Of a stretch of 42,515 nucleotides of DNA, positions 4,393-41,190 are shown one piece after another. Source of the DNA: a phage. Made by a program: the position numbers and the translations under genes. The stretch lies in sequence record PP754824.1. One strand, written 5' to 3'. Under the pieces are notes generated by a model that was not told the origin of the DNA, made no database searches, and saw only the letters and a program-made list of their open reading frames with translations. Positions within the stretch are counted from its first letter, which is position 1, and each line of letters opens with the position of its first letter.

Positions 4393-4899
4393 TTACGCTC
4401 TCGTATTTAGGTAGCCTTTATTTTCAGAGCCATGATTTTCATGATATCCGTTCAATTTGTCATACTGCGACCTTGCCAATGCAGCCTCCTCTATAGTGTC
4501 CTTGTAGCATATGAAGACTGTTTTACCAAACTCTCTAGCCTGAACAAGCCATCTATTCTCTCTTTTGCACCAGCTTACACCGTTTATTCCGCTTTTATTT
4601 CTTGATGATAGTGATCTGTTATTTGAGTTCTCTTTATTGCTTACTAACCTTAAGTTCTCTATTCTATTGTCACTTCTATTTTGGTTTATGTGATCTATGT
4701 ACATGCCTTTAGGGATTGCTCCATTGTGCATCTCCCACACCACCCTGTGACACCTGTATGCTTTTTGTCTATACTTTAGTATCACATAGCCAAATTTATC
4801 AACTCTTCCGGCCACCTCTCCAACCTTTGATACATTTGCTACTTTTACCTTTCTTATTAAAAGCCCGTCTCTATATTCAAAAATATCATGCCAATTCAT
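4393..4899 (-). CDS. HNH homing endonuclease (HNH_3 + AP2-like domain)
   Basis: IDHINQNRSDNRIENLRLVS HNH motif followed by SGINGVSWCKRENRW AP2-like segment; N-terminus MNWHDIFEYRDGLL is paralogous to 33191..33661; inserted between terS and terL. Confidence 0.85.
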   Translation of the reverse strand: MNWHDIFEYRDGLLIRKVKVANVSKVGEVAGRVDKFGYVILKYRQKAYRCHRVVWEMHNGAIPKGMYIDHINQNRSDNRIENLRLVSNKENSNNRSLSSRNKSGINGVSWCKRENRWLVQAREFGKTVFICYKDTIEEAALARSQYDKLNGYHENHGSENKGYLNTRA

Positions 4900-4927
4900 A
4901 TGATCACCTCGCTAGTTTGTTGGGCCC

Positions 4928-4970
4928 ATTATCTCATTGATTGGGCCTCTTCTTTTAACAAAAAGTGCTA
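4928..4970 (-). promoter_or_regulatory. conserved promoter box, variant TAGCACTTTTTGTTAA, 22-nt spacer, -10 GATAAT
   Basis: Member of the repeated box family; the -10 lies inside an inverted repeat GGGCCCA..TGGGCC; about 30 nt upstream of the HNH start. Confidence 0.5.
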
Positions 4971-5492
4971 CAGCTTACTAATCACAGACTCCAGCGCTTC
5001 CTTCATCGTGCCAACGTCGTTAGCTGAAGAGTTATTGCTTATAGTAATCTCCTGCGGCTTATCGATGCCAAGTTCTTTGGAAATCATGCCAGGGTTAACA
5101 ATGCCAGACGCTGCCAGCTGATACTTCTGCTCGCGAATCACGGAATCAATGAATGCAATTACCTCGTCATAACCCGCCGACTTCCTCCATTTCTCTATTG
5201 CGCTATGGGTAACACCGCAGTAAAGGCAGAATCCTGTTAGTGTGAAGACTCGTGGCTTGTGCACCAGATTCTCGGTTACGACACCCTGGAAGCTGGCTGT
5301 CTCAATTGCCTTGATTGCCTGGCTCTCAGCCCATGAGAAGTATTTCACGGCCAGGTCGAATAGCTGCTCTGGGGTCATTATTCGGTTTTTGGACAGAGTT
5401 GTAATGTCAGAATACTTTTTGTTGTACATGGCTTTGAAGTTGCCAGAGCGAATCTTTTCTTGCGCCTGGCTGGTGAAGTTTTCGTCTTTCAT
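4968..5492 (-). CDS. putative terminase small subunit (174 aa)
   Basis: First gene after the early/late terminator and immediately upstream (HNH insertion apart) of terL; assignment by position and size. Confidence 0.5.
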   Translation of the reverse strand: MKDENFTSQAQEKIRSGNFKAMYNKKYSDITTLSKNRIMTPEQLFDLAVKYFSWAESQAIKAIETASFQGVVTENLVHKPRVFTLTGFCLYCGVTHSAIEKWRKSAGYDEVIAFIDSVIREQKYQLAASGIVNPGMISKELGIDKPQEITISNNSSANDVGTMKEALESVISKL

Positions 5493-5537
5493 TTGTGACC
5501 TCCTTTGTTGATGTAAGATTATACCATATTACAGACG

Positions 5538-5561
5538 TAAAAAAGCCCTCAAGAAGAGGGC
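5538..5561 (-). terminator. rho-independent terminator (minus strand)
   Basis: Hairpin GCCCTCTTCTTGAGGGC followed by a T-run on the minus strand; separates the early gene/tRNA region from the packaging operon. Confidence 0.6.
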
Positions 5562-5614
5562 GAATTATCGAACAACAACGAGAGAGATGAAACAACCAGA
5601 GAGTAGAACTTCTT

Positions 5615-5797
5615 TTACTTTCGCTCACGAACGTAAGTTACTAGGAATTTGTGGTAATCCGGGTCGGCACCAGACATTACCTTTACTTTCGCTACCGCTT
5701 CCTCTGAGGACTCAGCGGTAACCGACGCGATAAATTCTTGCTGACAATTCTTACAGCTTCGACCCATTAAGCGGATTGAAAGCTTAACATCCCACAT
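5615..5797 (-). CDS. hypothetical protein (60 aa)
   Basis: ORF track only. Confidence 0.4.
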   Translation of the reverse strand: MWDVKLSIRLMGRSCKNCQQEFIASVTAESSEEAVAKVKVMSGADPDYHKFLVTYVRERK

Positions 5798-5813
5798 AAT
5801 GAATCTCCTTTAT

Positions 5814-5889
5814 TGGTGTTCCGCGCTGGACTCGAACCAGCAACTAAGACTTAGGAGGTCTTTGCGTTATCCTGTTACGCCAGCAGAAC
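5814..5889 (-). tRNA. tRNA-Arg (anticodon CCU), CCA encoded
   Basis: Hand-folded cloverleaf on the minus strand: 7-bp acceptor stem GTTCTGC/GCGGAAC (one G-U), D-arm GCGT/ACGC, anticodon stem AAGAC/GTCTT with loop CTCCTAA, T-arm GCTGG-TTCGAGT-CCAGC, discriminator A, CCA. Confidence 0.8.
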
Positions 5890-5900
5890 AAATATTTAAG

Positions 5901-5917
5901 TAGCGATTGCGCTATTT
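5901..5917 (-). promoter_or_regulatory. box-family variant (AATAGCGCAATCGCTA) 12 nt upstream of the tRNA
   Basis: Palindromic variant of the repeated box; no -10 at the usual 22-nt spacing, which would fall inside the tRNA. Confidence 0.35.
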
Positions 5918-6088
5918 AAAGATTGCTGGTTACGCCTCCAGCGTCGAGTTTCTCGACCGGTTATTGAGGTTTGCGCCTTATCCTCTTTGGCCAACTTGCC
6001 ATGCACGCTACTTAATTAGCAATGGACTTTGTGTTGCGCTCCGTGCGCCGTTCTAGCTTGGCTAGCTCGTATGCCTACGAGATAAATA

Positions 6089-6554: not shown

Positions 6555-6583
6555 TTTCTGCCCTCTCGTTGTTTGATTGGTTG

Positions 6584-6630
6584 ATTATATGGCATCAATG
6601 CCTGTCACGTTTAGCTATTCGTGCTGTCTA
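6584..6630 (-). promoter_or_regulatory. conserved promoter box (CAGCACGAATAGCTAA), 22-nt spacer, -10 TATAAT
   Basis: Box overlaps the 3' end of the upstream small ORF; spacer contains hairpin GGCATTGATGCC. Confidence 0.55.
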
Positions 6631-19392: not shown

Positions 19393-19403
19393 GTATGTAT
19401 AAT

Positions 19404-19432
19404 GCCCTCAAGTTAAATGCGAGGGCTTTTTT
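19404..19432 (+). terminator. rho-independent terminator
   Basis: GCCCTCAAGTTAAATGCGAGGGC followed by TTTTTT; abuts the ATG at 19433. Confidence 0.6.
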
Positions 19433-22082: not shown

Positions 22083-22125
22083 GCTTTATCTCTCTATGTT
22101 TGTTGGGGCCGCAGCCCCGTTAAAT

Positions 22126-22776: not shown

Positions 22777-22805
22777 CTTTAACCTCGTTCGTTGTTGATT
22801 GGATA

Positions 22806-22850
22806 ACTATACCTAAGTCATCCCGTTTTGTTTTAGCAATTCGTGCTGTT
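22806..22850 (-). promoter_or_regulatory. conserved promoter box (CAGCACGAATTGCTAA), 22-nt spacer, -10 TATAGT
   Basis: Box overlaps the stop of the exonuclease gene; leader AATCAACAACGAACGAGG. Confidence 0.6.
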
Positions 22851-27319: not shown

Positions 27320-30300
27320 TTAACCCAAGTATCCTAATTTTACCCTAACCACTCCATTCCGGTCCAGGACTCTCATCTTGCCACGATCGGAACCCCTAAG
27401 CGTCAATCCATCATCCTTATCTAGCCTCCAGCCTGAATTTGTACCCCAGTCATTAGACTGAATAAAGTTACCAATCTTCGCGTTACTGATTGAGCCATCG
27501 CCGATAACTGCACTCTTGATGATTACGTTTCCATTCTCGACAACGAAGGGGAGTTGCCACTGACCGGAGCCGGAACCAATGCCGTTACTGATAGCGAATC
27601 TGTTTGCGTCAAAAATGAATTGACTACGAACATTGTCACCAGTGCCGACAAGCTCCATGCTCATACCGGATGAATAAGTCTGTCCATTGTATTTCAGGCC
27701 AAGACTAATTCCGTACTGCACACCAGTCGATGTGGCATTAGAGAATGCGTCCAGCTTCTGGTTTAAAGCCGCCTCATTTTCACCAAGTCTTGCTGATAGA
27801 GTCGTGTCTGCAGTAGTCCTTGCTTCTGTCTCTGTGGCTAATGCAGTCTGAACTTCTGTAATCGATGCTACAACTTCATCATCTATCTGCGCCTTAAGGG
27901 CCGTTAGAGCCTCTACGCGCGCCTGAGTTTCATCGGCTATGAGATTCACAGCCTGAACATATTCAGCCTTACGCTTGCCGTTCTCCTTTGTCATTCTGCG
28001 AACATCGCCATCATTAGCCAGTGCGTTCTCGATAATTGCCTCAGCTTGATTCTGAATGTCCTGATTCTTTTGAATCGCATTCTGCTCGAGGTATTTGAAT
28101 CCTTCTGAACCTTCAATATCAACCTTGATGAAATCATTGATAATGTTTGCGTCGTCAGTACTCATGCCTCTTGCGAAATTAGACCAATCAGAGGTATTTC
28201 CGATTCTGTCAATCAATCTTGCGCGATACCAAATCACCTTACCTGGCTGAATTGGCGTATGCCAGTATTCGTAGGCAGGATAAGGAAGTAACGTAAGCAA
28301 ACTTGCATTATCAGGATTGTAAGTACCATCACCATTATCTGGAACCTGCTGAAGCTCAGTGTAAGCAGTATCGCCAGAGCCTTCAGGGAATCCCCATTTA
28401 ACACGGATACCAAATACTTCATCAGTTGACGCCGTGATAACCGTAGGTGCCGATGGGCGACCAATCTTGCCAGTTAGCGATACCGTTACAATACCAGACC
28501 AGGCAGACACGTTTTCAGTATCTGATACGCTGCGAACCCTAACGTCATAAATTCCTGCGTAAATACCTTCGATATCAACCTCTGTGCTAGCTGTTCTTGG
28601 TACGTTAATCCAGTTGCCATTCTCTTTTCTCCACTGAACATTGTAGGTTTTAGCGTATGGCGCTTTATCCCACCCGATAACCATCGTCTCAACTGATAAT
28701 CCTTGAACAACCTTGCTGTAGCTTGACACTGTTAAATTCTCAGGTGGCGACAATCTATCAGGCTCTACGACTGAAGTTGGACGGTCAACAATATTAACGC
28801 CGTAGTCAATCTCGTCATACTTGTTAGGGTCATACTCCACCGCAGTAATCGTGTACTGAAATGAATCAGAGCCGTCAGTATCTGCCTTTTGAATCCCGGT
28901 CACAACATACTGCTGAAGCGCAAGGTTATCCTTATCAATTGCGAACACAGTGTCTGGCTGAGCTACAAAACTGAAAGCAGTGTTAAGGTTGATTGTTCTG
29001 CCGTCTTCCGAAACACTGGCAATAGTTCTTGCCTCCGGGCTTCCGTCTGGCTTGTTAAGAATAATTCTGTCACCCGGCGCTGCGTCAACTTTAAACGGTG
29101 TAAAAACCTGTAGCCCCTGCACTGATTCAATGCGGCCGGAAAGGTTCAACTGATAGTTGCTCGACCATGCCGCATCATTAACTGCAATAACCTCGCCAAT
29201 CATCGGAATCATGCCTTCCAACCCGGTAGTGAAGCTGATAGTTTCGCTTCTCAGGTTGGTTTTTAGGAGCCATCTGCCGCGTCTGTTTGCTTCACTTCTG
29301 CGAGTGCAGCCAATTGCCGTAAGGTCGACTGGATTAAACCCGAACCTGCGAGTAGCCTCAAGCTCAAATACTGGCTCAACATCCTGCTGATAGTTGTTCT
29401 CTACATCATCAAACTGAACGTTTGCCGTGGTGTAAAGACTTTTATCGCTGGCAAATGTGCGACTGAACAATCCGTTTACAACGTTATCATTGGTGAAGAT
29501 GTAAGATGGGTTGCGAGGCTTATCAACCACGATGCCAATCTTTTCGCCGTCATAGAAAGTCAGGCCGCGAAAGATTGAACAGATATCACGAATTAGCGTG
29601 TAAGCCTCAACCTTGTTCTGTACAACCATATCGCAAAGGTAACGCGGCTCTAAGCCACCCTTGCCATCTGGAACCATCTGGTCACAGAATTGTGCAGCTT
29701 CGTACAGGCCCCACTTATCAATCTCTACACCCAGCTCTCGCTGGTCAAGTCCGTAACGGCGGTTTGTTACTAGGTCATAAAGAACCCATGCTGGGTTGTT
29801 TGACCATGCCATCTTGAATAGACCATTCCATGTGCCGCTATAAGTTCTGGTTTCAGGGTTATAGTTTGTAGGAACCTGAATCAACTTCCATCTCTTCTTG
29901 ATTGAGATTGTTGGGATGCCGTTAGGGAACAAGTCAGAACCAAACTCAACGTAAACCAGAGCCGTAAGCGGATAGCGGAATTTAGCGTCAATTACTTCCT
30001 GATAGGTTGTAATCTGCATACCGTTAACCAGGGTGCTACTTGTTGAATCCGGCGTAATCTTACGGATGCGAACAAGCGCGCTATCAAATTCTGCCGGAAG
30101 GTTTACGCGAATGCTTCGGTCGTAACCTGTAGTGGTCTTTCCGTTAGCAACTCCGCGAGTGTATTCCTGGTAAGCGCCACCATTAACAGAAAGGTCAATT
30201 GCATACTCGCAGGTTGTTCCGTTCAGGTCTCCATTGCTTTCTTGCTTAACCAGTCGAGGCCAGAATAGCTTAACTCGAATTGCCGAAAGCTGGCTGTTAT

Positions 30301-30676
30301 TAACCGCAATGATGTACGGGGTATCGTTCGTAATTTCCCTGGAAGCCTGAATCTCTGAGTTCGCACCGTCAAGCCCAGCGATATAGTCCTGATATTGCGT
30401 ACCAGCGCGAAACTCGGCGCGAACACCTTCATAGTTGTAGGTGCCATTCTGATTTTGCACTGGAACATCAGCAAGGTATAAATCCTTCAATGAGAAGTTA
30501 GGGTCCACCTCTCCGTCAGCAACCGCAAGTAATACCTTAACCTTGTTAAGTGAAATTAGGTTATCTTCCTGCTCCACTGGTTGATGCTGCTTCTGGTTAC
30601 CGCCTTTGGCACCATAAATCTTAATTTCTTCAGCCATATCACAAAGCCTCATGTTTGTTTTGATCATTTGTGCCAT
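27320..30676 (-). CDS. tail tip central fibre / host specificity protein J (1118 aa)
   Basis: Colinear similarity to lambda gpJ, e.g. QVPTNYNPETRTYSGTWNGLFK and RRGRWLLKTNL versus lambda LQVPSNYNPQTRQYSGIWDGTFK and HRAGLWLIKTEL. Confidence 0.85.
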   Translation of the reverse strand: MAQMIKTNMRLCDMAEEIKIYGAKGGNQKQHQPVEQEDNLISLNKVKVLLAVADGEVDPNFSLKDLYLADVPVQNQNGTYNYEGVRAEFRAGTQYQDYIAGLDGANSEIQASREITNDTPYIIAVNNSQLSAIRVKLFWPRLVKQESNGDLNGTTCEYAIDLSVNGGAYQEYTRGVANGKTTTGYDRSIRVNLPAEFDSALVRIRKITPDSTSSTLVNGMQITTYQEVIDAKFRYPLTALVYVEFGSDLFPNGIPTISIKKRWKLIQVPTNYNPETRTYSGTWNGLFKMAWSNNPAWVLYDLVTNRRYGLDQRELGVEIDKWGLYEAAQFCDQMVPDGKGGLEPRYLCDMVVQNKVEAYTLIRDICSIFRGLTFYDGEKIGIVVDKPRNPSYIFTNDNVVNGLFSRTFASDKSLYTTANVQFDDVENNYQQDVEPVFELEATRRFGFNPVDLTAIGCTRRSEANRRGRWLLKTNLRSETISFTTGLEGMIPMIGEVIAVNDAAWSSNYQLNLSGRIESVQGLQVFTPFKVDAAPGDRIILNKPDGSPEARTIASVSEDGRTINLNTAFSFVAQPDTVFAIDKDNLALQQYVVTGIQKADTDGSDSFQYTITAVEYDPNKYDEIDYGVNIVDRPTSVVEPDRLSPPENLTVSSYSKVVQGLSVETMVIGWDKAPYAKTYNVQWRKENGNWINVPRTASTEVDIEGIYAGIYDVRVRSVSDTENVSAWSGIVTVSLTGKIGRPSAPTVITASTDEVFGIRVKWGFPEGSGDTAYTELQQVPDNGDGTYNPDNASLLTLLPYPAYEYWHTPIQPGKVIWYRARLIDRIGNTSDWSNFARGMSTDDANIINDFIKVDIEGSEGFKYLEQNAIQKNQDIQNQAEAIIENALANDGDVRRMTKENGKRKAEYVQAVNLIADETQARVEALTALKAQIDDEVVASITEVQTALATETEARTTADTTLSARLGENEAALNQKLDAFSNATSTGVQYGISLGLKYNGQTYSSGMSMELVGTGDNVRSQFIFDANRFAISNGIGSGSGQWQLPFVVENGNVIIKSAVIGDGSISNAKIGNFIQSNDWGTNSGWRLDKDDGLTLRGSDRGKMRVLDRNGVVRVKLGYLG

Positions 30677-30685
30677 TCTACACTA

Positions 30686-30710
30686 AATAAAAAACCCGCA
30701 CTAGGCGGGT
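30686..30710 (-). terminator. terminator-like hairpin upstream of J
   Basis: ACCCGCCTAGTGCGGGT followed by TTTTTTATTT on the minus strand between I and J. Confidence 0.5.
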
Positions 30711-30717
30711 ATGATAT

Positions 30718-31290
30718 TTAAGCATTGTCTTCAGAATAGCTTCCCGCACTAAACACGGAGCCGCCAACCGTTCTATAACCATATGGAAGGCAAACTGGAT
30801 AACCAGCCGCTACCGTGTTTACAGCAGAGCCGAATGCGTAAGAAGCTCTATTGCTTGTCTGGTTACTTTGGTCTTTTAATCCGGTAGCTTGAGGTGAAAG
30901 AAGCTGGGCAATGCCGCCAGCAGCCAGAGAAACACCAGCGCCAATCAAGTAAACCTGCCCAGTGAAGATGCCAACTGTAATAAGCGCGGCACCTAGTATT
31001 GTCTGAAATAACCCACCAGACTTACGACCCTGCGGAACTGGAAGAATGCGTATCTCCTGAACGGCGCTAAAATCAGCAACTCTATGCTCATTAACATTTC
31101 TACCATCCACAAAAATTGCATACCTGGTGTTTTGCCCCACATGGCTATTCATGAACTCCTTGAAGGCTGGAATCTGAGAACAAAGCGCCCTCATTGCCTC
31201 AGGCACACTGTTTACTGCCATTTGGTGAACCTTGCCAAACTTGCGACCTAGAGATAGGCCTAACTTAATATCAATCAGTTTCTGGGTCAT
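30718..31290 (-). CDS. tail assembly protein I-like (190 aa)
   Basis: Position between K and J; Gly/Ala-rich hydrophobic C-terminal half. Confidence 0.6.
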   Translation of the reverse strand: MTQKLIDIKLGLSLGRKFGKVHQMAVNSVPEAMRALCSQIPAFKEFMNSHVGQNTRYAIFVDGRNVNEHRVADFSAVQEIRILPVPQGRKSGGLFQTILGAALITVGIFTGQVYLIGAGVSLAAGGIAQLLSPQATGLKDQSNQTSNRASYAFGSAVNTVAAGYPVCLPYGYRTVGGSVFSAGSYSEDNA

Positions 31291-32029
31291 AAATTACATC
31301 CTCTGGTAAATCCTTATGGCGAACAATGCGAACAGTTCGCTCGCGCCAGTAATAGGAATAAATATCTACAGAACTCATTTTACCATAAAGGTGATGTATG
31401 AATCTGTTGTTGCCAATGTAGATTCCTGCGTGGTTAGTAACCTCGCTTTGTACTTGCATCATGATCATTGAGCCAATTGGAATATCTGAAGTTTTTACTA
31501 GCTCAAAACCTTCCTTAACCCAGTTGTCGTCATAGATATTTTCCCCGTACCTCTTCTCCCACCACGGGTAATTAACTCGGTAGTCGTTTAGTTTGACGCT
31601 GTATTTTTTGTGAAATCCCATGACTAACTCCCAGCAATCAAAGCTACCCAAACCCCACGGTCGACCAATCAGTGGCATTGTTGATGGTTCAAGTATCCTC
31701 ATGTCTCCTTCTGGAATACTGACGATAACATAAGGGATCTCGCACTCGTTGCAGCTACAGATATCCGCTGGGCTAGGTCTTGTTGTCGCACCATCACCAG
31801 TGTGGGAGTGAACTACGTAAACAATTGACTCGTTATCAACCAGATTAAATGCAATGTCGGCATACTCATTTGAATCAAGTACAAACTCATTTTCAGGGTC
31901 TTTGCTGACATTGGTTATTCTATGATACTTCTGCGCACGACCCTTCTGCGTAACAACTCCACAGCACTCATGCGGGTAAACTTCCTTTGCGTGCTGGAAA
32001 ATTTCCAGTTTAACCTTTGAACTTAACAT
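31271..32029 (-). CDS. tail assembly protein K-like (MPN/JAB + NlpC/P60 domains)
   Basis: ECCGVV ... HSHTGDGATTRPSPADI (JAMM-like) followed by a Cys/His block CWELVMGFH ... HHLYG; start trimmed to the ATG at 32029 to avoid overlap with L. Confidence 0.75.
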   Translation of the reverse strand: MLSSKVKLEIFQHAKEVYPHECCGVVTQKGRAQKYHRITNVSKDPENEFVLDSNEYADIAFNLVDNESIVYVVHSHTGDGATTRPSPADICSCNECEIPYVIVSIPEGDMRILEPSTMPLIGRPWGLGSFDCWELVMGFHKKYSVKLNDYRVNYPWWEKRYGENIYDDNWVKEGFELVKTSDIPIGSMIMMQVQSEVTNHAGIYIGNNRFIHHLYGKMSSVDIYSYYWRERTVRIVRHKDLPEDVIYDPETD

Positions 32030-32042
32030 TAATAAATACCTC

Positions 32043-32810
32043 TTAGTTCTGATTGGCCTTTGCCTGAAGGCTTGCTGCCGCACAACCGCCGAAATCCAAT
32101 TGATTGTTAGCGCCAAATCTAATTTTGCAACTGTTTACCGTTCCGGAGCAGAAGTCTAATGAGGGATCACTAACTGGGTTATCATCTTTATCAAAGTATC
32201 GGTTTCCAGCATAGGCGCAACCATTGCCGCTACGATACCAGCCACGAGAAGCCCAATAGCAAACTGACTGAACAAGTCGCGCTGGAATGTAAATTCCATC
32301 CATATCCATTGGGCTACTTAGCTCAAACGAGGCAGTCTTGTAGTCAACCTGCTTTGGTCGCTCAATGAAGTAAACGAATCGTCGATAGTCCCCATCAGCG
32401 ATGCTTCCGTCTTCATTGATGTTATCGCGCGTAGTAATCCAGATAGTAACCTTAGCCTTAACTAGACCATTGTATTCACGAATCAATGCGCTAATGCGCT
32501 GGTCTACGTTTGATACTGTCAGAGTAACCTTGTTTGCCTTGCCGTCAGAAGTCATATTGATACCCGAGATACCAAATGGTCGGGGCCCATACTCTTCACC
32601 GCGGAAGGTAATTGTCTTCTCTGGCAGTGGCTCTCCGTTCATTTGGGCCAGCATGATTTCCTCTGGCGTGTATGAGATGTTTTCATTGTGGAAATTATAA
32701 ACGAGACTACCAAATGCCGTCCCATCAACCTGGATTAGTGTCACAATCTCGCCAGGGAAAAGGCTTTGCAACTGATTTTCAAACTTTGGACTTAACATGA
32801 TTTTCTCCAA
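32043..32810 (-). CDS. minor tail protein L-like (255 aa)
   Basis: Position and C-terminal Cys cluster (CYWAS...GNGCAY...CSGTVNSCK...GGC) as in lambda gpL. Confidence 0.7.
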   Translation of the reverse strand: MEKIMLSPKFENQLQSLFPGEIVTLIQVDGTAFGSLVYNFHNENISYTPEEIMLAQMNGEPLPEKTITFRGEEYGPRPFGISGINMTSDGKANKVTLTVSNVDQRISALIREYNGLVKAKVTIWITTRDNINEDGSIADGDYRRFVYFIERPKQVDYKTASFELSSPMDMDGIYIPARLVQSVCYWASRGWYRSGNGCAYAGNRYFDKDDNPVSDPSLDFCSGTVNSCKIRFGANNQLDFGGCAAASLQAKANQN

Positions 32811-32836
32811 TAAAAAAAAGCCCCTAATGGGGCTTA
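32811..32836 (-). terminator. terminator-like hairpin between M and L
   Basis: AGCCCCATTAGGGGCT followed by TTTTTTTT on the minus strand. Confidence 0.5.
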
Positions 32837-32838
32837 GT

Positions 32839-33189
32839 TTAACGCATTGAGCTAAAGACTTCCACGAATTGCATGCTTACAGTCTGAACTTCGCTACTTA
32901 ATGGCGTTACACTGATGCTATCTTGCTGAATAACAAACATAGAAGTATCGCCTTGCGGTGTTCTCCAGAAGAATGGTGTGATGATGTGATTGAAACAGAA
33001 ATCCATAACCTCACGCCAGTTCTTGTTTGTGTAAGTCATCTGGTAGCTGCGCTTATTGCTGCGGTATCCTCCCGTCCCTCTTTGTTCATAACCATTGCCA
33101 AAGCTAACAATACGCACGTTATTGGTGTTAGAGAATGTCGCGCCTCCATTTTGAATCTGAGTGCAAAAATTAAACGTATCTAGAGCCAT
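32839..33189 (-). CDS. minor tail protein M-like (116 aa)
   Basis: Size and position directly after the tape measure gene (HNH insertion apart). Confidence 0.6.
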   Translation of the reverse strand: MALDTFNFCTQIQNGGATFSNTNNVRIVSFGNGYEQRGTGGYRSNKRSYQMTYTNKNWREVMDFCFNHIITPFFWRTPQGDTSMFVIQQDSISVTPLSSEVQTVSMQFVEVFSSMR

Positions 33190-33190
33190 A

Positions 33191-33661
33191 TTATTTACCC
33201 CCGTGATTTTTGTGATAATTAAGGGCTATCTCTGCGCTTTTTCTCGCTTTTACAGCCTCTTCAAAATTGCTTGTTGTTAATAGAATTCTCTTACCTATCT
33301 TTGATATAAATTTTTTCTTTGTTTTGCAGTAACTAACCACGACAACGCCAGTTTTATTTGATGAGTACATGCTTTTGTTTTTCATGTTATCACTCTTCGT
33401 TACCAGTCTTATGTTTGATATGTTGTTGTTTTTTCTAGAGTGGTCAATGTGATCAATTTCCATGTCATCAGCTATTCTTCCATTAAACATTTCCCATACA
33501 ACCCTATGGGCCATTACCTTTACACGCTTGTATTGAACGATTATGTAACCTCTCTTTTCACAAAAGAAACCAGCAACATCGCCAATATTGTATTGTATTG
33601 CTGGCTTTATCTTCCAATAAAGAACGCCATTTCTATAATCAAAAATATCATTCCAGTTCAT
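33191..33661 (-). CDS. HNH homing endonuclease (156 aa)
   Basis: EIDHIDHSRKNNNISNIRLVT HNH motif; N-terminus MNWNDIFDYRNGVLYWKIK paralogous to 4393..4899; inserted between tape measure and M. Confidence 0.85.
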   Translation of the reverse strand: MNWNDIFDYRNGVLYWKIKPAIQYNIGDVAGFFCEKRGYIIVQYKRVKVMAHRVVWEMFNGRIADDMEIDHIDHSRKNNNISNIRLVTKSDNMKNKSMYSSNKTGVVVVSYCKTKKKFISKIGKRILLTTSNFEEAVKARKSAEIALNYHKNHGGK

Positions 33662-33689
33662 TTTATCTCCTTATGATTTTAATGAGTTG

Positions 33690-33734
33690 ATTATAGCAAG
33701 CCAAATCCTTTTGGCTTTACCATTTTGTGCTATT
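33690..33734 (-). promoter_or_regulatory. conserved promoter box variant (AATAGCACAAAATGGTAA), 22-nt spacer, -10 TATAAT
   Basis: Spacer hairpin AGCCAAAAGGATTTGGCT; RBS AAGGAG; drives the HNH gene. Confidence 0.55.
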
Positions 33735-36717
33735 AGTTGAAACCTCTCAAATAAGCAAATGCTCTGCCGCCCTGCTGGAAAGACTGAGCAATCTCTTCTG
33801 CTACAATTGCCTTAACGCCATTTTGCAGCGCCTTGGCCTGTTCCGGGTCGCTTCCAATCCCACTATTAACGTTAACGGTTATTCCGCTAACATTAACATC
33901 TGCACCACCAGAAACCAAGCCGCCATTTGCATAGCCCGAAGGCCCGCCTACAACACCGCCATTTGCGTAACCTCTCATCAATGCGTAAAGGTTTTTAACA
34001 CCAATCCTGCTTGTTGCTTCTTTTGTGAATACAAACTCCCCCTTATGTACAGTGCCTGCTGGTTGATATTTTCCACCGTCTCCAGTGTAACCGCCGCTAG
34101 CAAAGCCACCGCCAATCGCAGATGCGATAGACCCAATCGCGCCACCAGTACCACCAAAGCTACTTAAGCTAGACTCGATAGCCTTAACAATAAGAAGCTG
34201 AGTTGCAATTCTTGCAATCTGCTTGAGTATGTTTACAGTAAACTCCCTGAAGTTTGTTTCTCCAGTGGTTACAAGGTCAGTAATCTGGTCAGTAATGCCT
34301 TCAAATACCTTAGTGGTTAAACTTCCGGCAATTGAGAAAGCATCTGTAGCGCTTTCAGCCCAGTTAGCAAAGGATTGATTCACGCCAGCAAGCCAGTTTT
34401 CACGTAGCGCATCCTCTTGAGCATAGAAATTACGCCTTGCTTCGAGTAAAGCCTGAAAATCAGTGTCATCTACAGAGCCACCTTTGTTTAACTGATTGGA
34501 CTGAAGCGACTGAATCTCTCTGGCTCTCTGCTTCTCCCTGTCAGATAAATTAGCAGCAAGCGAAACATTATTTGCTTCATTCTTAATCTGCACAGTCTTC
34601 TTAAGGTTGTCATCAAGTAACTTGTTTGACCTCTCCTGAAGCACAATCTGGTCACCAAGCTCAGCCTTCTGTTTAGCCTGTTCAAGAATGATATTCTTCT
34701 GCGCAAGTAACTTGGCTTGTGATTTTGTAAGCGTACCATCCGCTTGCCTTTGCTCAAGTATTGCAAACTTCGCTTCTTCCTGGAATAACTGCTTGCGTTC
34801 GTTGCTTATTACATCACTTATTTTCTTGTGCTCTTGTAAAACCTTCAGCTGAGCCTGAAGAGCAAGAACACCAGATTCATAAGATAAAGTTAAATCCATT
34901 TCTTCTTTTACTGCCTTATTCCTCTCGCTCCTCGATTTCTTTATTGCATCAAGCTCGTCTGCTAGCGCTTTCTTCCTTGCTCCGAACTCCTTATCTGTTG
35001 ATGCATTATTCCCGCTCAGGTTAGTGTTATTGTTGCTCTCGACATAACCAAGTTCACCCTTCCTGATTCTCGCGTCTCGCTCAGCTATGCTTTTAGCTAA
35101 CTCAATGTTTTGCTTCTTGGCAGCATCGACAATCTTTTGCTGCTCAGCGATTGCTTCATTGCCTAAATCGCCAAGTCCCGGGATTGACTGAAGCGTCTTG
35201 GTTGCAGCGATAGCAAATTCACCAAGAAGAATGTCGCCTGAGTTTATGAACGACCTTATCTGCTCAATCGTCCCAGCAACAACGTCAGTTATTAAGTTAA
35301 GAGCACCAAGTGTCCTTTTGCCGATATCATCCCAAATATTACTTACAAACTTCCTGAAGCTATTCCATGCACTTTCTAGCGGATTGAGGCTTAGTGCAAC
35401 ATCTTCTAGCCTGTTTTCCATAACGTTAGCAAATAACTCAGTAGCTGCTGTTACAGCCTCAGTCTCTCCCGCTGTCTTCCTTAAGTTCTCTATGTGTTTT
35501 AACTGCCCACTTTGAAGGAAGTTAAATTGCTTATCAAGCTCAGCAAGGCCTTTAACAGGGTCTTTTGTAATTTGGTCAAAGTACCCGAGAATGGTCTTTG
35601 AATCGGTTGATGTTACTGCCGCCCACTGCGCTGTTGCCTTAGTTATCTTGTCTATCTGCGTAAGAGTTAGGTTTCCGTTTGCCACAAGGCTATTGGCTAT
35701 TTCCTGAATAAGTCCGCGAGTAGCTAGTGTTGATCTCTCAATTCCATCAACAACCTGATTTATCTGCGCTGTAGACGTGATAGTTGAGTTGCCAACCAAC
35801 GTTATCGTAGATGCTAGTCCTCGAGCATTCTTATCGGCCTGATAAGCCGCAACACCCAAAGCGCCAAGAGCCAGGCCTAGAGTCCCAACAACTGCTGTTA
35901 ATGGGTTAATGGCTGCCAGTGCAAACCTTGCTGTATTTCCAATACCGCCAAAACTATCCTTAATCTGCCCACCCTGTTGGATTGCAACAAGCCAGACTGG
36001 CATGCCGCTAGCAAGGGAAGTTCCGATATCTGTAATCTGAGCGGGTAGCTGGCGAATCGCTTGCTTGTACTGACCGGCGCTTAAACCTGACTTAAGAAAA
36101 GCGGAACTCTGCTTCTGCAACTGAACAGCAGATGCCTCGGCAGCCTTACCAATCCTGTCGATAATAGGCGCAGCTTGGTCACTAACCCCTAGCTGAGCAG
36201 CCTTAAGCTGAAGCAGTTCAGTCCTTGTAAGGCTTGCTGCATTCGCCTCGTTCTCAAGAGATTGAATGAACTTTTGCGCCGCTGCTGTTGCCTTTTCTTT
36301 GTCTATTGATGCCTGGAGTGCAGCCCGACCTTCCTCGCTAAGAGCAGCTTTAGACCTGTTGAGCTTATTGATTTGAGTTTCAATAACAGAGCCAAGCCTG
36401 AAGAATTCTTCATCAGGAACTATCCCAGATTCAAATGCTTTGTCTAATTCAGTTGCTGCCTTCTGCAACTTCTGGAATTTAGCGGCAGTTGGGTCTATGG
36501 CTTTCTGAAGTGATGCGAAAGATTTGCGCTGTTCCTCAAGCTGCCTTGCAGTGTCCCTTGCTTGAGTCTTGGCTACAAGCTCGGCGTTGATGAAGCTATT
36601 GATTCCCGTTGCAGCTTGCTCGTTTGCTTGCCTGAATTTCTGTAATGATTGCGTACCCTTATCGACCTGAGCGACGTCGACGGCTAGCGTGATACCAGCA
36701 ATTTCGTTAGTTGCCAT
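33733..36717 (-). CDS. tail tape measure protein (994 aa)
   Basis: Long Ala/Gln/Lys-rich alpha-helical protein with Gly-rich C-terminal segment, downstream of the G/G-T chaperone pair. Confidence 0.9.
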   Translation of the reverse strand: MATNEIAGITLAVDVAQVDKGTQSLQKFRQANEQAATGINSFINAELVAKTQARDTARQLEEQRKSFASLQKAIDPTAAKFQKLQKAATELDKAFESGIVPDEEFFRLGSVIETQINKLNRSKAALSEEGRAALQASIDKEKATAAAQKFIQSLENEANAASLTRTELLQLKAAQLGVSDQAAPIIDRIGKAAEASAVQLQKQSSAFLKSGLSAGQYKQAIRQLPAQITDIGTSLASGMPVWLVAIQQGGQIKDSFGGIGNTARFALAAINPLTAVVGTLGLALGALGVAAYQADKNARGLASTITLVGNSTITSTAQINQVVDGIERSTLATRGLIQEIANSLVANGNLTLTQIDKITKATAQWAAVTSTDSKTILGYFDQITKDPVKGLAELDKQFNFLQSGQLKHIENLRKTAGETEAVTAATELFANVMENRLEDVALSLNPLESAWNSFRKFVSNIWDDIGKRTLGALNLITDVVAGTIEQIRSFINSGDILLGEFAIAATKTLQSIPGLGDLGNEAIAEQQKIVDAAKKQNIELAKSIAERDARIRKGELGYVESNNNTNLSGNNASTDKEFGARKKALADELDAIKKSRSERNKAVKEEMDLTLSYESGVLALQAQLKVLQEHKKISDVISNERKQLFQEEAKFAILEQRQADGTLTKSQAKLLAQKNIILEQAKQKAELGDQIVLQERSNKLLDDNLKKTVQIKNEANNVSLAANLSDREKQRAREIQSLQSNQLNKGGSVDDTDFQALLEARRNFYAQEDALRENWLAGVNQSFANWAESATDAFSIAGSLTTKVFEGITDQITDLVTTGETNFREFTVNILKQIARIATQLLIVKAIESSLSSFGGTGGAIGSIASAIGGGFASGGYTGDGGKYQPAGTVHKGEFVFTKEATSRIGVKNLYALMRGYANGGVVGGPSGYANGGLVSGGADVNVSGITVNVNSGIGSDPEQAKALQNGVKAIVAEEIAQSFQQGGRAFAYLRGFN

Positions 36718-39009: not shown

Positions 39010-39455
39010 TATCGTTTACTCCTCGCTTCAGCAACGGCTTCCTCAAAGTATCGACCAAGTCTGATATTAACTACACCAAGTACACCTGCTGGCGCTTGCT
39101 GCGATGCACCGTATTCAAGATCTGACGCATAATCTAGCCTGTTGGTTATGTAGATAACCTTTGTTGCTGGTGAGTTAGCTACTGCTCTGGCTTGTCTTGC
39201 AAGGTACCTTTTTGTATCACCGCCAGTCTTGTCGTAATCATTTAACGACTGTACTGCTGGTGAGTTTGCTGTAATCTGCCAGTTAGCCTTAAACCTACCA
39301 GTATCAACAGGAGATAAATCAACAATGGCGTTAGCTGCTTTAATTACAGTGCCTGAAACAATTTCAGAAAAACCATCATCAGCTCTTGAAATCCAGTCAT
39401 TGATAGAGTTCGTGAATGTAGCTAAGCCACCAACATTATTAGCCATAAGCAGCAA
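39009..39455 (-). CDS. tail completion-like protein (gpZ position) (148 aa)
   Basis: Gene order only. Confidence 0.45.
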   Translation of the reverse strand: MLLMANNVGGLATFTNSINDWISRADDGFSEIVSGTVIKAANAIVDLSPVDTGRFKANWQITANSPAVQSLNDYDKTGGDTKRYLARQARAVANSPATKVIYITNRLDYASDLEYGASQQAPAGVLGVVNIRLGRYFEEAVAEARSKR

Positions 39456-39822
39456 TCCTCCTCAGAATTGGCCTGTATGCGACTACAGTACCTGTTGGTT
39501 TCACTGGTCTCGGGTCGACTACAGTGTAAGTTTCATCGTCCACAATAATCCTGTAGCCCTGTAAGATTGGGACTTCGGAAGTGAAGATTCCACGCTTATC
39601 GCCAAACTGAATATACTCACCATCAATATCTCTGGTTTTAATCTCCCTCACCAGCCCCTTGATTAATGCAGTGCCGCCAGATACAGGAACCTCGACACCA
39701 TCGACAATCTCCACCCCACCTTTACCAGTTTCCATGGTAAACGTACCATCGCCATCACTAAAGATATTGATTCCCGTTCGCATTAATGATTCGATTTGAG
39801 AGTAATTCATCGGCAACCGCAC
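39439..39822 (-). CDS. head-tail joining protein (gpFII position) (127 aa)
   Basis: Gene order only. Confidence 0.45.
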   Translation of the reverse strand: MRLPMNYSQIESLMRTGINIFSDGDGTFTMETGKGGVEIVDGVEVPVSGGTALIKGLVREIKTRDIDGEYIQFGDKRGIFTSEVPILQGYRIIVDDETYTVVDPRPVKPTGTVVAYRPILRRIAAYG

Positions 39823-40217
39823 CCACGCCCACCGGACGTAACCAATCCAAAGCCACCACCTTTCTTACGCAGAAGGTTCCAGTACAGACGACCCCACGGG
39901 GTGGAAGTCAGTGCTGATTGTGATTGAGACGTTGATTCATAGCTGATAGAGAACTCACCACTCAGTGAGTAACTTGCCACCTTCTTACCGTAATCATCCA
40001 AAGACTCATTCTGCTTAAGTGCACCATCAAGAAAGGCAATGTGCATAGTGTACAGTGCCAGTGCCTTGTAAGCATCATCACCAAACTTACTGGTACAGAT
40101 GTAAAGCTTGGCTAGCTCAAGCCATACGTCAAGTGTTTCATCAGAAACATTCTTAAGGGCAGGAACTAATGACCTCATGAATGCTAATGCTTGTTCGTTC
40201 ATATTACCTCCATACAA
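39807..40217 (-). CDS. head-tail connector / head completion protein (136 aa)
   Basis: Gene order only. Confidence 0.45.
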   Translation of the reverse strand: MYGGNMNEQALAFMRSLVPALKNVSDETLDVWLELAKLYICTSKFGDDAYKALALYTMHIAFLDGALKQNESLDDYGKKVASYSLSGEFSISYESTSQSQSALTSTPWGRLYWNLLRKKGGGFGLVTSGGRGCGCR

Positions 40218-40243
40218 AAACGGACGCCGAAGCGCCCATTTTG

Positions 40244-40489
40244 TTATTTGTACTCGTTGCCAGTCTCGGCTTCAGAGATGGTCTTTGGTTCTTTGCGTTT
40301 TTTCTGACTGTTGATTTCTTGCGCCACTTCTTTAGTTGCCTTGTAGTCACCTTCAATGGTGAGTTTACCTTCAGCAATCAGGCGTTTCAGTCCATCACAA
40401 AGCTCACTTGCTTCAATTGTGTCGCCAGGTAAGTATTTAGCACCTTTATAAACAATCATGCACGCGCCAGTGTGTTCTAACTTAATCAT
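40244..40489 (-). CDS. hypothetical protein (81 aa)
   Basis: ORF track. Confidence 0.45.
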   Translation of the reverse strand: MIKLEHTGACMIVYKGAKYLPGDTIEASELCDGLKRLIAEGKLTIEGDYKATKEVAQEINSQKKRKEPKTISEAETGNEYK

Positions 40490-40519
40490 TACTTGCTCCT
40501 TTTATTAATTGATGATTGA

Positions 40520-41128
40520 TTATAGCACTAAACAATCGCCTTCGTGAACCCCATTGGCGTTTCCGTACTCGCCGAATATTTCTTTACACCAACTGTCGTA
40601 ACACTCCTTAGCCTCTTCAATTGTGTCAAACCTTTTAGCCATCCTTACATCTCCGCAATCCTTTTGTATCTGGGCTTTCCACTTCCCCCTTGATTTATCG
40701 TAGCTAACACCTTTAAATCCACTCTTGTTCCTTTTGTATAGGCTCGTATTCATCATGTTCTCACTTCGAGTAACAACCCTTAGGTTTTCCACCCTATTGT
40801 TTAATGAGTTACCATCAATGTGATCTATCTCACCTGTCGGCCAACTCCTGTGATGATAAAACCACTTTAACTTATGCATTGAAACGTGAAACTTCTTCCC
40901 GGAAACTTTAATACATAGCTTCCACATCTTACTTTCTGGGCATGTTGGGTTTGGAGTGAATTCACCTCCAGCAACCTTTCCGGCGCACCTTGAATTCCAT
41001 ACATTTGTAAACCTATCATTTCCCGGCTTTACTTTCCATGTCATAACGGGACTTTCAGAATCTGATTCAAGTCTTGATGTTAGCTCTTCGTGAGTTAGTA
41101 GTTCTTCAATTTTCATTTTCGCCTCCAT
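40520..41128 (-). CDS. HNH homing endonuclease (HNH_3 + AP2-like) (202 aa)
   Basis: EIDHIDGNSLNNRVENLRVVT HNH motif and SGFKGVSYDKSRGKWKAQI AP2-like segment; inserted after the major capsid gene. Confidence 0.85.
   Translation of the reverse strand: MEAKMKIEELLTHEELTSRLESDSESPVMTWKVKPGNDRFTNVWNSRCAGKVAGGEFTPNPTCPESKMWKLCIKVSGKKFHVSMHKLKWFYHHRSWPTGEIDHIDGNSLNNRVENLRVVTRSENMMNTSLYKRNKSGFKGVSYDKSRGKWKAQIQKDCGDVRMAKRFDTIEEAKECYDSWCKEIFGEYGNANGVHEGDCLVL
40521..40540 (+). promoter_or_regulatory. truncated box copy (ATAGCAC joined directly to TAAACAATCGCC) at the 3' edge of the HNH insertion
   Basis: Plus strand reads TATAGCACTAAACAATCGCC: the two halves of the long box lacking GAATTGC. Confidence 0.3.
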
Positions 41129-41144
41129 TGTTTTGATGGAAACA

Positions 41145-41190
41145 AAAATACCACCTTTCGGTGGTATTGTTTTGTCATTTAGTGCTATTA
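41145..41190 (-). promoter_or_regulatory. box-family copy (AATAGCACTAAATGACAAAAC) upstream of the HNH gene, overlapping the major-capsid terminator
   Basis: Box followed by hairpin ATACCACCGAAAGGTGGTAT and TATTTT; RBS GGAGG before the ATG at 41128. Confidence 0.45.
41147..41172 (-). terminator. rho-independent terminator after the major capsid gene
   Basis: ATACCACCGAAAGGTGGTAT followed by TTTTGTTT on the minus strand. Confidence 0.65.

What the first reader, a model, noticed from the sequence alone, without database searches (positions are those of the whole stretch)
4393..41190. Three HNH homing endonuclease genes inside the morphogenesis operon
HNH genes lie between terS and terL (4393..4899), between tape measure and M (33191..33661), and between major capsid and head completion genes (40520..41128). 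The first two share an N-terminus (MNWHDIFEYRDGLL versus MNWNDIFDYRNGVL), suggesting duplication and retargeting. Each has its own copy of the conserved box upstream, and the third is bounded downstream by a truncated box copy at 40521..40540, which may mark the insertion boundary.
Basis: partly seen in the sequence, partly recalled or inferred. Interest (0 to 1): 0.55.

Follow-up and report, generated by a model that had tools for sequence, protein, structure and literature searches.

The report
Three free-standing HNH homing endonuclease genes
A T1-like E. coli phage carries three selfish HNH "homing endonuclease" gene cassettes wedged between essential head, packaging and tail genes; this is a common, already annotated feature of this phage family, although related phages that lack each cassette would make the homing directly testable.

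Summary
The window is a whole Christensenvirus-like (Drexlerviridae) coliphage genome. ORFs 4393..4899, 33191..33661 and 40520..41128 (minus strand) are intact HNH_3 proteins of the I-HmuI type, and the third also has an AP2 domain. They lie between terS and terL, between tape measure and minor tail protein M, and between major capsid and a small T1 gp46-like gene.

Each is preceded by a full copy of the genome-wide promoter-like box (TAGCAC, 31 nt, then a -10 hexamer), and the empty sites lack it.

Two sub-claims are weaker:
- The shared MNW.DIF.Y N-terminus is family-wide. It occurs in HEGs at four sites and in I-HmuI, so it does not mark an HNH-1/HNH-2 duplication (42% identity).
- The "truncated box" is an 11-nt inverted copy of the box core. 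It overlaps the downstream promoter's -10 and is not conserved in another phage with a different HEG at that site.

At all three sites the ~70-nt leader is more conserved between phages (91-93%, or 47/48 nt) than the HEG ORF behind it (33-52% aa). Nearly identical genes are already annotated as HNH (homing) endonucleases in GenBank. Interest is low.

The parts
4393..4899 (-). HNH-1: free-standing HNH_3 homing endonuclease gene (168 aa) between terS and terL
   Evidence: Pfam HNH_3 E=4e-22. Full-length match to I-HmuI 1U3E, E=9.8e-5. GC 37.9% against 43.9% for the genome. Absent from SU57, DTL and IME542.
4900..4970 (-). HNH-1 leader. The TAGCAC box core (4965-4970) overlaps the terS TAG stop codon. 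A GGCCCA/TGGGCC hairpin carries GATAAT (4928-4933) in its loop. A GAGGTG Shine-Dalgarno sequence follows.
   Evidence: Sequence. 93% identical to the Rtp leader and 91% to the 2725-N35 leader, although those HEGs are only 42-43% identical in amino acids. Absent from the empty site of SU57.
33191..33661 (-). HNH-2: free-standing HNH_3 homing endonuclease gene (156 aa) between tape measure and minor tail protein M
   Evidence: Pfam HNH_3 E=2.8e-19. GC 34.0%. About 100% identical DNA in TR1 and IME542; absent from Rao1, TR2, TR3 and CY1.
33662..33732 (-). HNH-2 leader. TAGCAC (33727-33732) directly follows the TMP TAA stop. An AGCCAAA/TTTGGCT hairpin is followed by an extended -10, TGcTATAAT (33690-33698), and an AAGGAG Shine-Dalgarno sequence.
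   Evidence: 92% identical to the JeanPiccard leader, although the HEGs are 52% identical in amino acids.
40520..41128 (-). HNH-3: HNH_3 + AP2 homing endonuclease gene between the major capsid gene and a gp46-like gene. The longest ORF is 202 aa; the probable start is 41116 (198 aa).
   Evidence: Pfam HNH_3 E=3e-13 and AP2 E=1.1e-8. At 99% identity or more it occurs only in Rao1, CY1, TR2 and TR3; the next best hit is 39%. Absent from TR1, IME542, Rtp and DTL.
41129..41187 (-). HNH-3 leader. TAGCAC (41182-41187) directly follows the MCP TAA stop. An intrinsic-terminator hairpin (41147-41168) has a T-run that supplies a weak -10, TATTTT (41145-41150).
   Evidence: 47 of 48 nt identical to IMM-001, which carries a different HEG there.
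40516..40548 (-). Downstream promoter for the head-completion genes: TTCACG, 18 nt, TGcTATAAT. The HNH-3 stop codon TAA (40520-40522) lies inside the TATAAT hexamer (40519-40524). This is the right-hand insertion boundary.
   Evidence: Promoter scan, 10 of 12 matches with TG. Alignment with the empty sites of IME542, TR1, Rtp and DTL. The HEG of IMM-001 ends in the same way.
40522..40532 (.). Left arm of an 11-nt perfect inverted repeat (ATAGCACTAAA) that brackets HNH-3. The right arm is 41178-41188.
   Evidence: the repeat finder pair I2. Not conserved in IMM-001.
41191..41290 (-). Last ~100 nt of the capsid gene. This is the divergent, HEG-linked allele and the candidate location of the HNH-3 target.
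   Evidence: Window against the HEG-less TR1: 99.6% identity over the first 840 nt, 73% over the last 105 nt (28 differences, 6 amino-acid changes). Three positions are invariant in four HEG-less alleles and changed in both HEG+ alleles.
30300..34500 (.). 4.2-kb mosaic tract that carries HNH-2 (J N-terminus, I, K, L, M, HNH-2, TMP C-terminus), of TR1/IME542 type in an otherwise Rao1-type genome
   Evidence: About 100% identity to TR1 and IME542 against 64-95% (mostly 76-92%) to Rao1 in 100-nt bins, with sharp edges near 30,290 and 34,500.

Best explanation
The three ORFs are free-standing (intergenic, not intron-borne) homing endonuclease genes. They belong to the I-HmuI-like HNH_3 family and carry an AP2-type C-terminal DNA-binding region.

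Each is a self-contained cassette inserted exactly between the stop codon of one essential structural gene and the translation start region of the next. A cassette consists of a copy of the phage's own terminator/promoter box (TAGCAC, 31 nt with a hairpin, then a -10), a Shine-Dalgarno sequence and the ORF.

Inferred mechanism: in a mixed infection with a relative that lacks the cassette, the enzyme nicks or cuts the HEG-less allele in the adjacent conserved gene. For HNH-3 this is probably in the last ~50 nt of the capsid gene. Recombinational repair from the HEG+ genome then copies the cassette and the flanking markers into the cut genome. This is intronless homing, or marker exclusion, as in the T4 seg/mob genes.

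What is shown: family membership, intact catalytic motif, precise presence/absence polymorphism, cassette boundaries, foreign base composition, and linkage of HEG presence to divergent flanking alleles and mosaic tracts.

What is inferred: nuclease activity, target sites and present-day mobility.
For: 1. Family. HNH_3 hits at E=4e-22 to 3e-13, AP2 in HNH-3, and phrog_99 for all three. HNH-1 aligns end to end with I-HmuI (1U3E, E=9.8e-5). The DHI..N...N..NLR..V....N..N motif is conserved in all three and in ten other genus HEGs.

2. Empty sites (junctions).
- Site 1: SU57 reads terS-TAA-16 nt-ATG terL. The window has the cassette between the stop codon and the native RBS region.
- Site 2: Rao1 has a 30-nt hairpin spacer.
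- Site 3: IME542, TR1, Rtp and DTL have a 92-nt terminator+promoter spacer.
- Only 8 of 367, 15 of 742 and 3 of 744 matching records cover 80% or more of each locus query.

3. Occupancy matrix. Seven genomes and eight sites are all different. The window has three sites filled and five empty.

4. Free-standing. Rfam finds no intron in the window.

5. Base composition. GC is 34-41% in the HEGs against 42-48% in their neighbours.

6. Flank linkage. There is a sharp 99.6% to 73% identity switch 100 nt from the HNH-3 site against the HEG-less TR1. HNH-2 rides on a 4.2-kb TR1/IME542-type tract in a Rao1-type genome.

7. Own promoter box upstream of each gene, absent from the empty sites.

8. Literature. 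The properties match free-standing HEGs of T-even phages: intergenic position between conserved genes, distant cleavage, co-conversion, own promoters, and replacement of one HEG by another at a site (PMC2988022). They also match the HNH+AP2 HEGs found at exchange boundaries in ICP1 (PMC10448857).
Against: - No biochemical or genetic evidence exists for cleavage or super-Mendelian inheritance of any of the three genes.
- HNH-1 and HNH-3 are present in all five closest relatives. Those relatives are about 100% identical in these regions, so they are not independent and give no evidence of recent movement.
- Mosaic boundaries are not statistically enriched near HEG sites in this small set: 4 of 16 lie within 450 bp against about 3.5 expected. 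The flank patterns are therefore compatible with ordinary recombination.
- HNH-2 (window and IME542 allele) has Val where 11 or more of the 13 aligned family members, including TR1's HNH-2, have the conserved Gly of the G-V motif in the AP2-like strand. This could impair the protein.
- AP2 is detected by Pfam only in HNH-3.
Confidence: 0.82

Rival explanations
1. HNH-1 is not selfish. It is a terminase accessory nuclease, like HK97 gp74-type HNH proteins that sit next to terminase genes and are required for genome end cleavage.
For: Its position directly between terS and terL. Only 2 nt separate its stop codon from the terL start. It is present in all five nearest relatives.
Against: It belongs to HNH_3 and is I-HmuI-like with a C-terminal DNA-binding region; it is not the short PF01844 type. 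Relatives with homologous terminases lack any gene there: SU57, DTL, IME542 and the vB_EcoS-12210I group. Three mutually ~42%-identical HEGs occupy this site in different phages. The TR1 record annotates headful packaging, which needs no cos-cutting helper.
Confidence: 0.04
2. The genes are decaying or domesticated relics with no current mobility. They are kept because each cassette now supplies the promoter and the translational coupling for the essential downstream gene (terL, M, head-completion genes), or because the AP2/HNH protein acts as a DNA-binding regulator.
For: The gaps from HEG stop to the next start codon are 2 nt (terL) and 1 nt (M). The HNH-3 stop codon lies inside the downstream -10. 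Leaders are more conserved than ORFs. HNH-2 has a Gly-to-Val change in a conserved motif.
Against: The ORFs are intact and all catalytic-motif residues are conserved. HEG-less relatives express the same downstream genes without any cassette. Presence/absence varies even among about 100% identical backbones.
Confidence: 0.1
3. They act mainly as interference weapons against co-infecting relatives or satellites, cutting competitor DNA to lower its yield. Copying of the gene itself is secondary.
For: The enzyme family and genome positions in essential late genes are the same as in homing. An intron HNH endonuclease in PhiPA3 was reported to mediate such competition (PMC11620839, abstract seen).
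Against: Sequence alone cannot distinguish this from homing. It is an added benefit rather than an alternative mechanism.
Confidence: 0.04

Closest known systems
I-HmuI (Bacillus phage SPO1; PDB 1U3E), an HNH homing (nicking) endonuclease
   Same: HNH-1 aligns over its full length (E=9.8e-5), including the M(N/E)W.DI..Y N-terminus and the DH...N...NLR...N catalytic core. HNH-3 aligns over the core.
   Different: I-HmuI is encoded in a group I intron; these three genes are intergenic and Rfam finds no intron. The C-terminal DNA-binding part here is AP2-like (Pfam AP2 in HNH-3). The helix-turn-helix tail of I-HmuI is recalled from memory.
Free-standing HNH/GIY-YIG endonucleases of T-even phages (mobA-E, segA-G; intronless homing / marker exclusion; review PMC2988022)
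   Same: Intergenic position between conserved essential genes; own promoters; presence/absence polymorphism among relatives; divergent flanking alleles; different HEGs replacing each other at one site.
   Different: A different phage family (a 42-kb T1-like siphovirus) and different enzymes. Here three lie inside the late morphogenesis operon, packed within 1-2 nt of the next gene. No cleavage sites have been mapped.
HNH + AP2 'IPA-HNH' HEGs of Vibrio phage ICP1 and other phages (Barth et al. 2023, PMC10448857)
   Same: N-terminal HNH plus C-terminal AP2 architecture. HEGs lie next to boundaries of genetic exchange: HNH-3 is 100 nt from a boundary and HNH-2 sits inside a 4.2-kb swapped tract.
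   Different: The ICP1 proteins lacked canonical HNH_3 Pfam hits, whereas these have strong ones. Boundary enrichment is not statistically demonstrable here.
PeSL composite terminator/promoter cassettes of T4-like phages (PMC2839356, PMC4122927)
   Same: The leader in front of each HEG is a short conserved stem-loop plus promoter unit repeated about 13 times in the genome. It sits at the junction where unrelated ORFs are exchanged.
   Different: Different sequence (TAGCAC-N5-TGCTAAA core) and a different phage family. Here the hairpin part is site-specific, and no recombination between copies has been shown.
HK97 gp74-type terminase-associated HNH proteins
   Same: An HNH nuclease gene adjacent to terminase genes (HNH-1 only).
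   Different: A different HNH subfamily, dispensable in relatives, in a phage lineage annotated as headful-packaging.

Membership tests
HNH_3 / I-HmuI-like homing endonucleases | beta-beta-alpha-metal HNH core with the conserved D-H ... N ... N residues | tested here: met
   PF13392 at 78, 68.9 and 49.6 bits against a cut-off of 24.8. The DHI..N...N..NLR......N..N motif is conserved in all three and aligned to I-HmuI.
HNH_3 / I-HmuI-like homing endonucleases | Separate sequence-specific DNA-binding module fused to the nuclease (here AP2-type) | tested here: met
   AP2 PF00847 at 35.7 bits (cut-off 33.3) in HNH-3. HNH-1 and HNH-2 align with that region (G-GV...W/F..A...A..R motif) but have no Pfam AP2 hit of their own.
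Free-standing homing endonuclease gene (mobile element) | Presence/absence polymorphism with a precise empty site in related genomes | tested here: met
   All three sites have empty alleles with defined junctions.
Free-standing homing endonuclease gene (mobile element) | Not inside an intron or intein; lies between conserved genes | tested here: met
   Intergenic position. Rfam finds only a tRNA in the window.
Free-standing homing endonuclease gene (mobile element) | Flanking-marker co-conversion or recombination boundary linked to the HEG | tested here: inconclusive
   There is a sharp boundary 100 nt from HNH-3 and a 4.2-kb tract around HNH-2. Overall, boundaries are not enriched near HEG sites: 4 of 16 against about 3.5 expected.
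Free-standing homing endonuclease gene (mobile element) | Site-specific cleavage of the HEG-less allele and super-Mendelian inheritance in crosses | not testable with these tools
   Requires enzyme assays and mixed infections. Only a candidate target region could be inferred.
Terminase-associated HNH (HK97 gp74 type) | Short PF01844-type HNH conserved next to terminase in all relatives | tested here: not met
   Only HNH_3 is detected. The site is empty in SU57, DTL and IME542.
Intron-encoded homing endonuclease | ORF embedded in a group I/II intron that interrupts a gene | tested here: not met
   No intron family hit. The neighbouring ORFs are complete.

The most novel reading that the evidence does not exclude
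Each HEG site may hold a site-resident 'landing pad'. This is a ~70-nt terminator/promoter leader (TAGCAC box plus a site-specific hairpin) that is kept almost unchanged across phage genera while non-orthologous HNH ORFs are repeatedly swapped or rapidly re-specified behind it. That would be a PeSL-like mechanism of HEG turnover.

The cassette may also be locked in place. It supplies the promoter and the 1-2-nt translational coupling for the essential downstream gene, and its stop codon lies inside the next promoter's -10.
Probability: 0.2. Interest if true: 0.5.

Novelty: already known. Interest (0 to 1): 0.22.

Why it matters
This matters little on its own. HNH endonuclease genes scattered through T1-like (Drexlerviridae) genomes are routinely annotated. 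Genes 99-100% identical to these three are already labelled HNH (homing) endonuclease in Rao1, TR1, TR2 and TR3, and the mechanism is textbook from T4.

The practical value is a ready natural test system. All the phages involved grow on E. coli laboratory strains.
- This phage and Rao1 are nearly identical and differ at the HNH-2 site.
- This phage and TR1 differ at the HNH-3 site.

Homing, target sites and co-conversion in a small siphovirus could therefore be measured directly.

Two further observations may interest people who study HEG life cycles and phage mosaicism. Leaders are far better conserved than the ORFs behind them. HEG stop codons are embedded in downstream control signals.

Tried and rejected
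1. Recent HNH-1/HNH-2 duplication: rejected. The two are 42% identical. HNH-1 is closer to HEGs at other sites or in other phages (48-50%). The N-terminal motif is family-wide.

2. The 11-nt inverted repeat as terminal repeats of a transposon-like unit: not supported. One arm overlaps the extended -10 of the downstream promoter. IMM-001, with another HEG in the same site and the same flanks, lacks the repeat. HNH-1 and HNH-2 have no such repeat.

3. HEG sites as statistically enriched mosaic boundaries: tested on six pairwise comparisons and not significant.

4. A shared 'immune' capsid 3' allele between the two HEG+ phages at site 3: overall identity is only 70%. Only three shared changes against invariant HEG-less positions were found.

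5. Additional or degenerate HNH copies in the window: none found.

6. Intron association: none.

7. Packaging-HNH role for HNH-1: rejected (see rival explanations).

8. Box-mediated hopping of one HEG between sites: no pair of HEGs at different sites exceeds 56% identity, so there is no sign of recent hopping.

9. Structure prediction and large protein-database searches were not run. Pfam, PHROG and PDB sequence matches already settle family membership.

Full report
**What the window is.** The 42,515-nt window is essentially a complete genome of a T1/Rtp-like E. coli siphovirus. Its closest relatives in the phage collection are classified in Drexlerviridae, Braunvirinae, and CY1, TR1, TR2 and IME542 are placed in the genus Christensenvirus. 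It is about 100% identical to phage Rao1 over most of its length (75% of 100-nt bins) and to CY1, TR2, TR3 and TR1 over large parts. It is a mosaic of these and of IME542.

**Checking the observation.**
- All three are strong Pfam HNH_3 matches (E=4e-22, 2.8e-19, 3e-13). The third also passes the AP2 gathering threshold. All belong to phrog_99.
- HNH-1 aligns end to end with the solved HNH homing endonuclease I-HmuI (1U3E, E=9.8e-5), and HNH-3 aligns over the catalytic core.
- The D-H...N...N-L-R...N...N motif is intact in all three.
- The neighbours are terS/terL, tape measure/minor tail protein, and major head protein/an 81-aa gp46-like protein followed by connector proteins.
- The likely true start of HNH-3 is the second ATG at 41116, which has a GGAGG 5 nt upstream and matches the 597-nt annotation in Rao1, TR2 and TR3.
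- No further HNH_3 copy or relic is present in the window. No intron RNA family is detected, only a tRNA at 5817-5889.

**Empty sites.** Each locus plus 1 kb of flanks was compared with the phage collection. For every site many relatives align across both flanks but skip the HNH gene.
- *Site 1.* SU57 reads ...AAGCTA TAA AAACGAGGGTATAACA ATG(terL). The window reads ...AAGCTG TAG CAC[leader + HNH-1]...AATACGAGAGCG TAA CA ATG. The cassette therefore sits exactly between the terS stop codon and the native terL ribosome-binding region. The last codons and stop of HNH-1 reuse that region.
- *Site 2.* Rao1 has only a 30-nt hairpin spacer between TMP and M. In the window, HNH-2 ends 1 nt before the ATG of M.
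- *Site 3.* IME542, TR1, Rtp and DTL have a 92-nt spacer with a terminator and a TATAAT promoter. In the window, HNH-3 lies between a different terminator and that -10. Its stop codon TAA (40520-40522) lies inside the TATAAT hexamer.

From the annotation of six relatives plus the window I count eight HEG sites in this group: terS|terL, terL|portal, MCP|gp46-like, TMP|M, I|J, regulator|primase, SSB|recombinase and recombinase|exonuclease. Nearly every genome has its own occupancy pattern; only TR3 and CY1 share one. The window fills three sites and has five empty.

**Other signs of foreign, mobile origin.**
- The HEGs have 34.0-41.0% G+C against 42-48% for their neighbours and 43.9% for the genome.
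- HNH-3 occurs at 99% or more only in four near-identical phages; the next relative is 39% identical. HNH-1 occurs in five phages, and the next is 50%.
- HNH-2 sits in a 4.2-kb tract (about 30,300-34,500) that is about 100% identical to TR1 and IME542 but only 64-95% (mostly 76-92%) to Rao1 in 100-nt bins. Rao1 is otherwise the window's near-twin, lacks HNH-2, and carries a different HEG at I|J.
- TR1, which lacks HNH-3, is 99.6% identical to the window over the first 840 nt of the capsid gene. Identity drops to 73% (28 differences, 6 amino-acid changes) in the last 105 nt next to the insertion site. There TR1 resembles the HEG-less IME542 allele at 93%.
- Four HEG-less alleles share GTn TAY CGn CCn CTG ACn ATG 30-48 nt before the stop codon. 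Both HEG-bearing alleles (window and IMM-001) differ at three of the invariant positions. This is a candidate target region and is inference only.

A rough test over 16 distinct mosaic boundaries found no significant enrichment near HEG sites: 4 lie within 450 bp against about 3.5 expected. The flank patterns are consistent with homing-associated co-conversion but do not prove it.

**The 'conserved box'.** The box is real. AATAGCAC occurs 11 times against 1.5 expected. Read off the contexts, the fuller motif is aaTAGCAC-N5-TGCTAAA, usually a short hairpin, then a TATAAT-like hexamer about 31 nt (30-32) after TAGCAC. This geometry holds in 12 of 13 copies spread over all genome modules. It looks like a composite terminator/promoter unit; TAGCA-N5-TGCTA is a palindrome.

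All three HEGs have a full copy immediately upstream. The stop codon of the preceding structural gene abuts or overlaps TAGCAC. The empty sites lack the box, so it is part of the HEG-bearing allele. Three of the four boxes inside the morphogenesis operon belong to HEGs.

**The 'truncated box' at 40521-40540.** The repeat finder reports an 11-nt perfect inverted repeat, ATAGCACTAAA (40522-40532) with TTTAGTGCTAT (41178-41188), bracketing HNH-3. Its left arm overlaps the extended -10 (TGCTATAAT) of the downstream promoter. IMM-001 has a different HEG (gp40, 157 aa; 43% identity to HNH-3 over 95 aa) in the same site with nearly the same flanks and lacks the repeat. That HEG also ends with its TAA inside the TATAAT.

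**'Duplication and retargeting'.** HNH-1 and HNH-2 are 42% identical over their full length. Thirteen HEGs from eight sites are all 27-56% identical to one another. HNH-1 is closer to the TMP|M HEG of JeanPiccard (48%) and to HEGs of phiEB49 and DTL (about 50%) than to HNH-2. The MNW.D.F.Y start occurs in HEGs at four sites and, as MEWKDIKGY, in I-HmuI. These genes are an old paralogous family, not a recent intragenomic duplication.

**An extra pattern.** At each site, phages that carry different HEGs share almost the same leader.

| Comparison with the window | Leader identity | HEG ORF identity (aa) | HEG ORF identity (nt) | Flanking structural genes (nt) |
|---|---|---|---|---|
| Rtp, site 1 | 93% | 42% | 62% | 71%, 90% |
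| 2725-N35, site 1 | 91% | 43% | 59% | 74%, 88% |
| JeanPiccard, site 2 | 92% | 52% | 64% | 83%, 81% |
| IMM-001, site 3 | 80% overall; 47 of first 48 nt | 33% | 52% | 71%, 69% |

Same-site HEGs are mostly not each other's best matches. This suggests ORF replacement or rapid re-specification behind a fixed, site-specific leader. It is reminiscent of PeSL cassettes in T4-like phages (PMC4122927) and of SegH/Hef replacing mobC/mobE (cited in PMC2988022). I rate this as a modest, unproven extension.

**Mechanism.** The best explanation is classical intronless homing or marker exclusion by free-standing HNH endonucleases (review PMC2988022; HNH+AP2 HEGs at exchange boundaries, PMC10448857). The enzyme is expressed from its own box promoter or by read-through. 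It nicks or cuts the HEG-less allele of a co-infecting relative in the adjacent conserved gene, and repair copies the cassette and flanking markers.

The tight packing may stabilise the insertions: gaps of 2 nt and 1 nt to terL and M, and a stop codon inside the next -10. This is inference.

Three rivals are less likely:
- A packaging-accessory role for HNH-1 is contradicted by its subfamily and by HEG-less relatives.
- Domesticated relics kept for their promoter and coupling functions.
- A primarily competitive weapon against co-infecting relatives.

**Comparison with what is known, and novelty.** Genes 99-100% identical are already annotated as HNH (homing) endonuclease in Rao1, TR1, TR2 and TR3 and are listed in the TR1 paper (PMC10450929). 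[quoted passage not shown] None of these enzymes has been characterised. The finding is correct but ordinary. Its main use is as a convenient natural system for testing homing in a small siphovirus.

Noticed in passing
window, box cores (strand): 4965-, 7538-, 9196+, 10006+, 14060-, 16400-, 18891-, 20414-, 24502+, 25727+, 33727-, 37903-, 41182-: A genome-wide conserved unit: aaTAGCAC-N5-TGCTAAA, usually a short hairpin, then a TATAAT-like hexamer about 31 nt (30-32) after TAGCAC. TAGCA-N5-TGCTA is a palindrome, which suggests a dimeric regulator site upstream of a weak -35 (TAAAGA/TAAACA). A variant, CAGCACgaattgctaaaac, precedes the exonuclease-side gene at about 22,800.
   Followed up: partly
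window 1-42515 against Rao1, TR1, TR2, TR3, CY1, IME542: The genome is a clear mosaic. It is about 100% Rao1-like over most of its length. The segment 7,600-9,150 is about 100% IME542-like and absent or divergent in the others. The segment 30,300-34,500 is TR1/IME542-like. The segment 20,500-21,500 (inside the 392-aa ORF 20442..21620) matches none of the six.
   Followed up: partly
window 33191-33661 (HNH-2), motif NKTGVVVVSY: The window and IME542 allele has Val where TR1's HNH-2 and nearly all family members have the conserved Gly of the G-V motif in the AP2-like first strand. This substitution may weaken the protein.
   Followed up: no
window 40522-40532 and 41178-41188: An 11-nt perfect inverted repeat made of the box core brackets HNH-3 exactly, running from its stop codon to the capsid gene's stop codon. 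It is not conserved in IMM-001, and its significance is unexplained.
   Followed up: yes
L010 (IMM-001) 1003-1476; L013 (2725-N35) 991-1503; L014 (Rtp) 991-1467; L015 (JeanPiccard) 1001-1477: Other phages carry non-orthologous HNH_3 genes (33-52% amino-acid identity) in the same three sites, behind nearly identical leaders. In 2725-N35 and Rtp the HEG ORF overlaps the terL start by 8 nt.
   Followed up: yes
window 5817-5889 (-): A tRNA gene (Rfam 59 bits) lies upstream of terS. The corresponding gene in TR1, TR2 and TR3 is annotated tRNA-Arg (CCT).
   Followed up: no
window 30677-30717, 2797-2818, 19393-19432, 22083-22125, 22777-22849: Five intergenic sites that hold HNH genes in Rao1, IME542, TR1 or TR2 are empty here. 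Most contain only a terminator-like hairpin. They are potential recipient sites for crosses.
   Followed up: partly
window 2819-4390 (terL): Rao1, TR1, TR2 and TR3 annotate terL as 1,443 nt, starting 129 nt downstream. CY1 and SU57, and the ORF here, give 1,572 nt starting 2 nt after the HNH-1 stop. The shorter annotations probably truncate the N-terminus.
   Followed up: no
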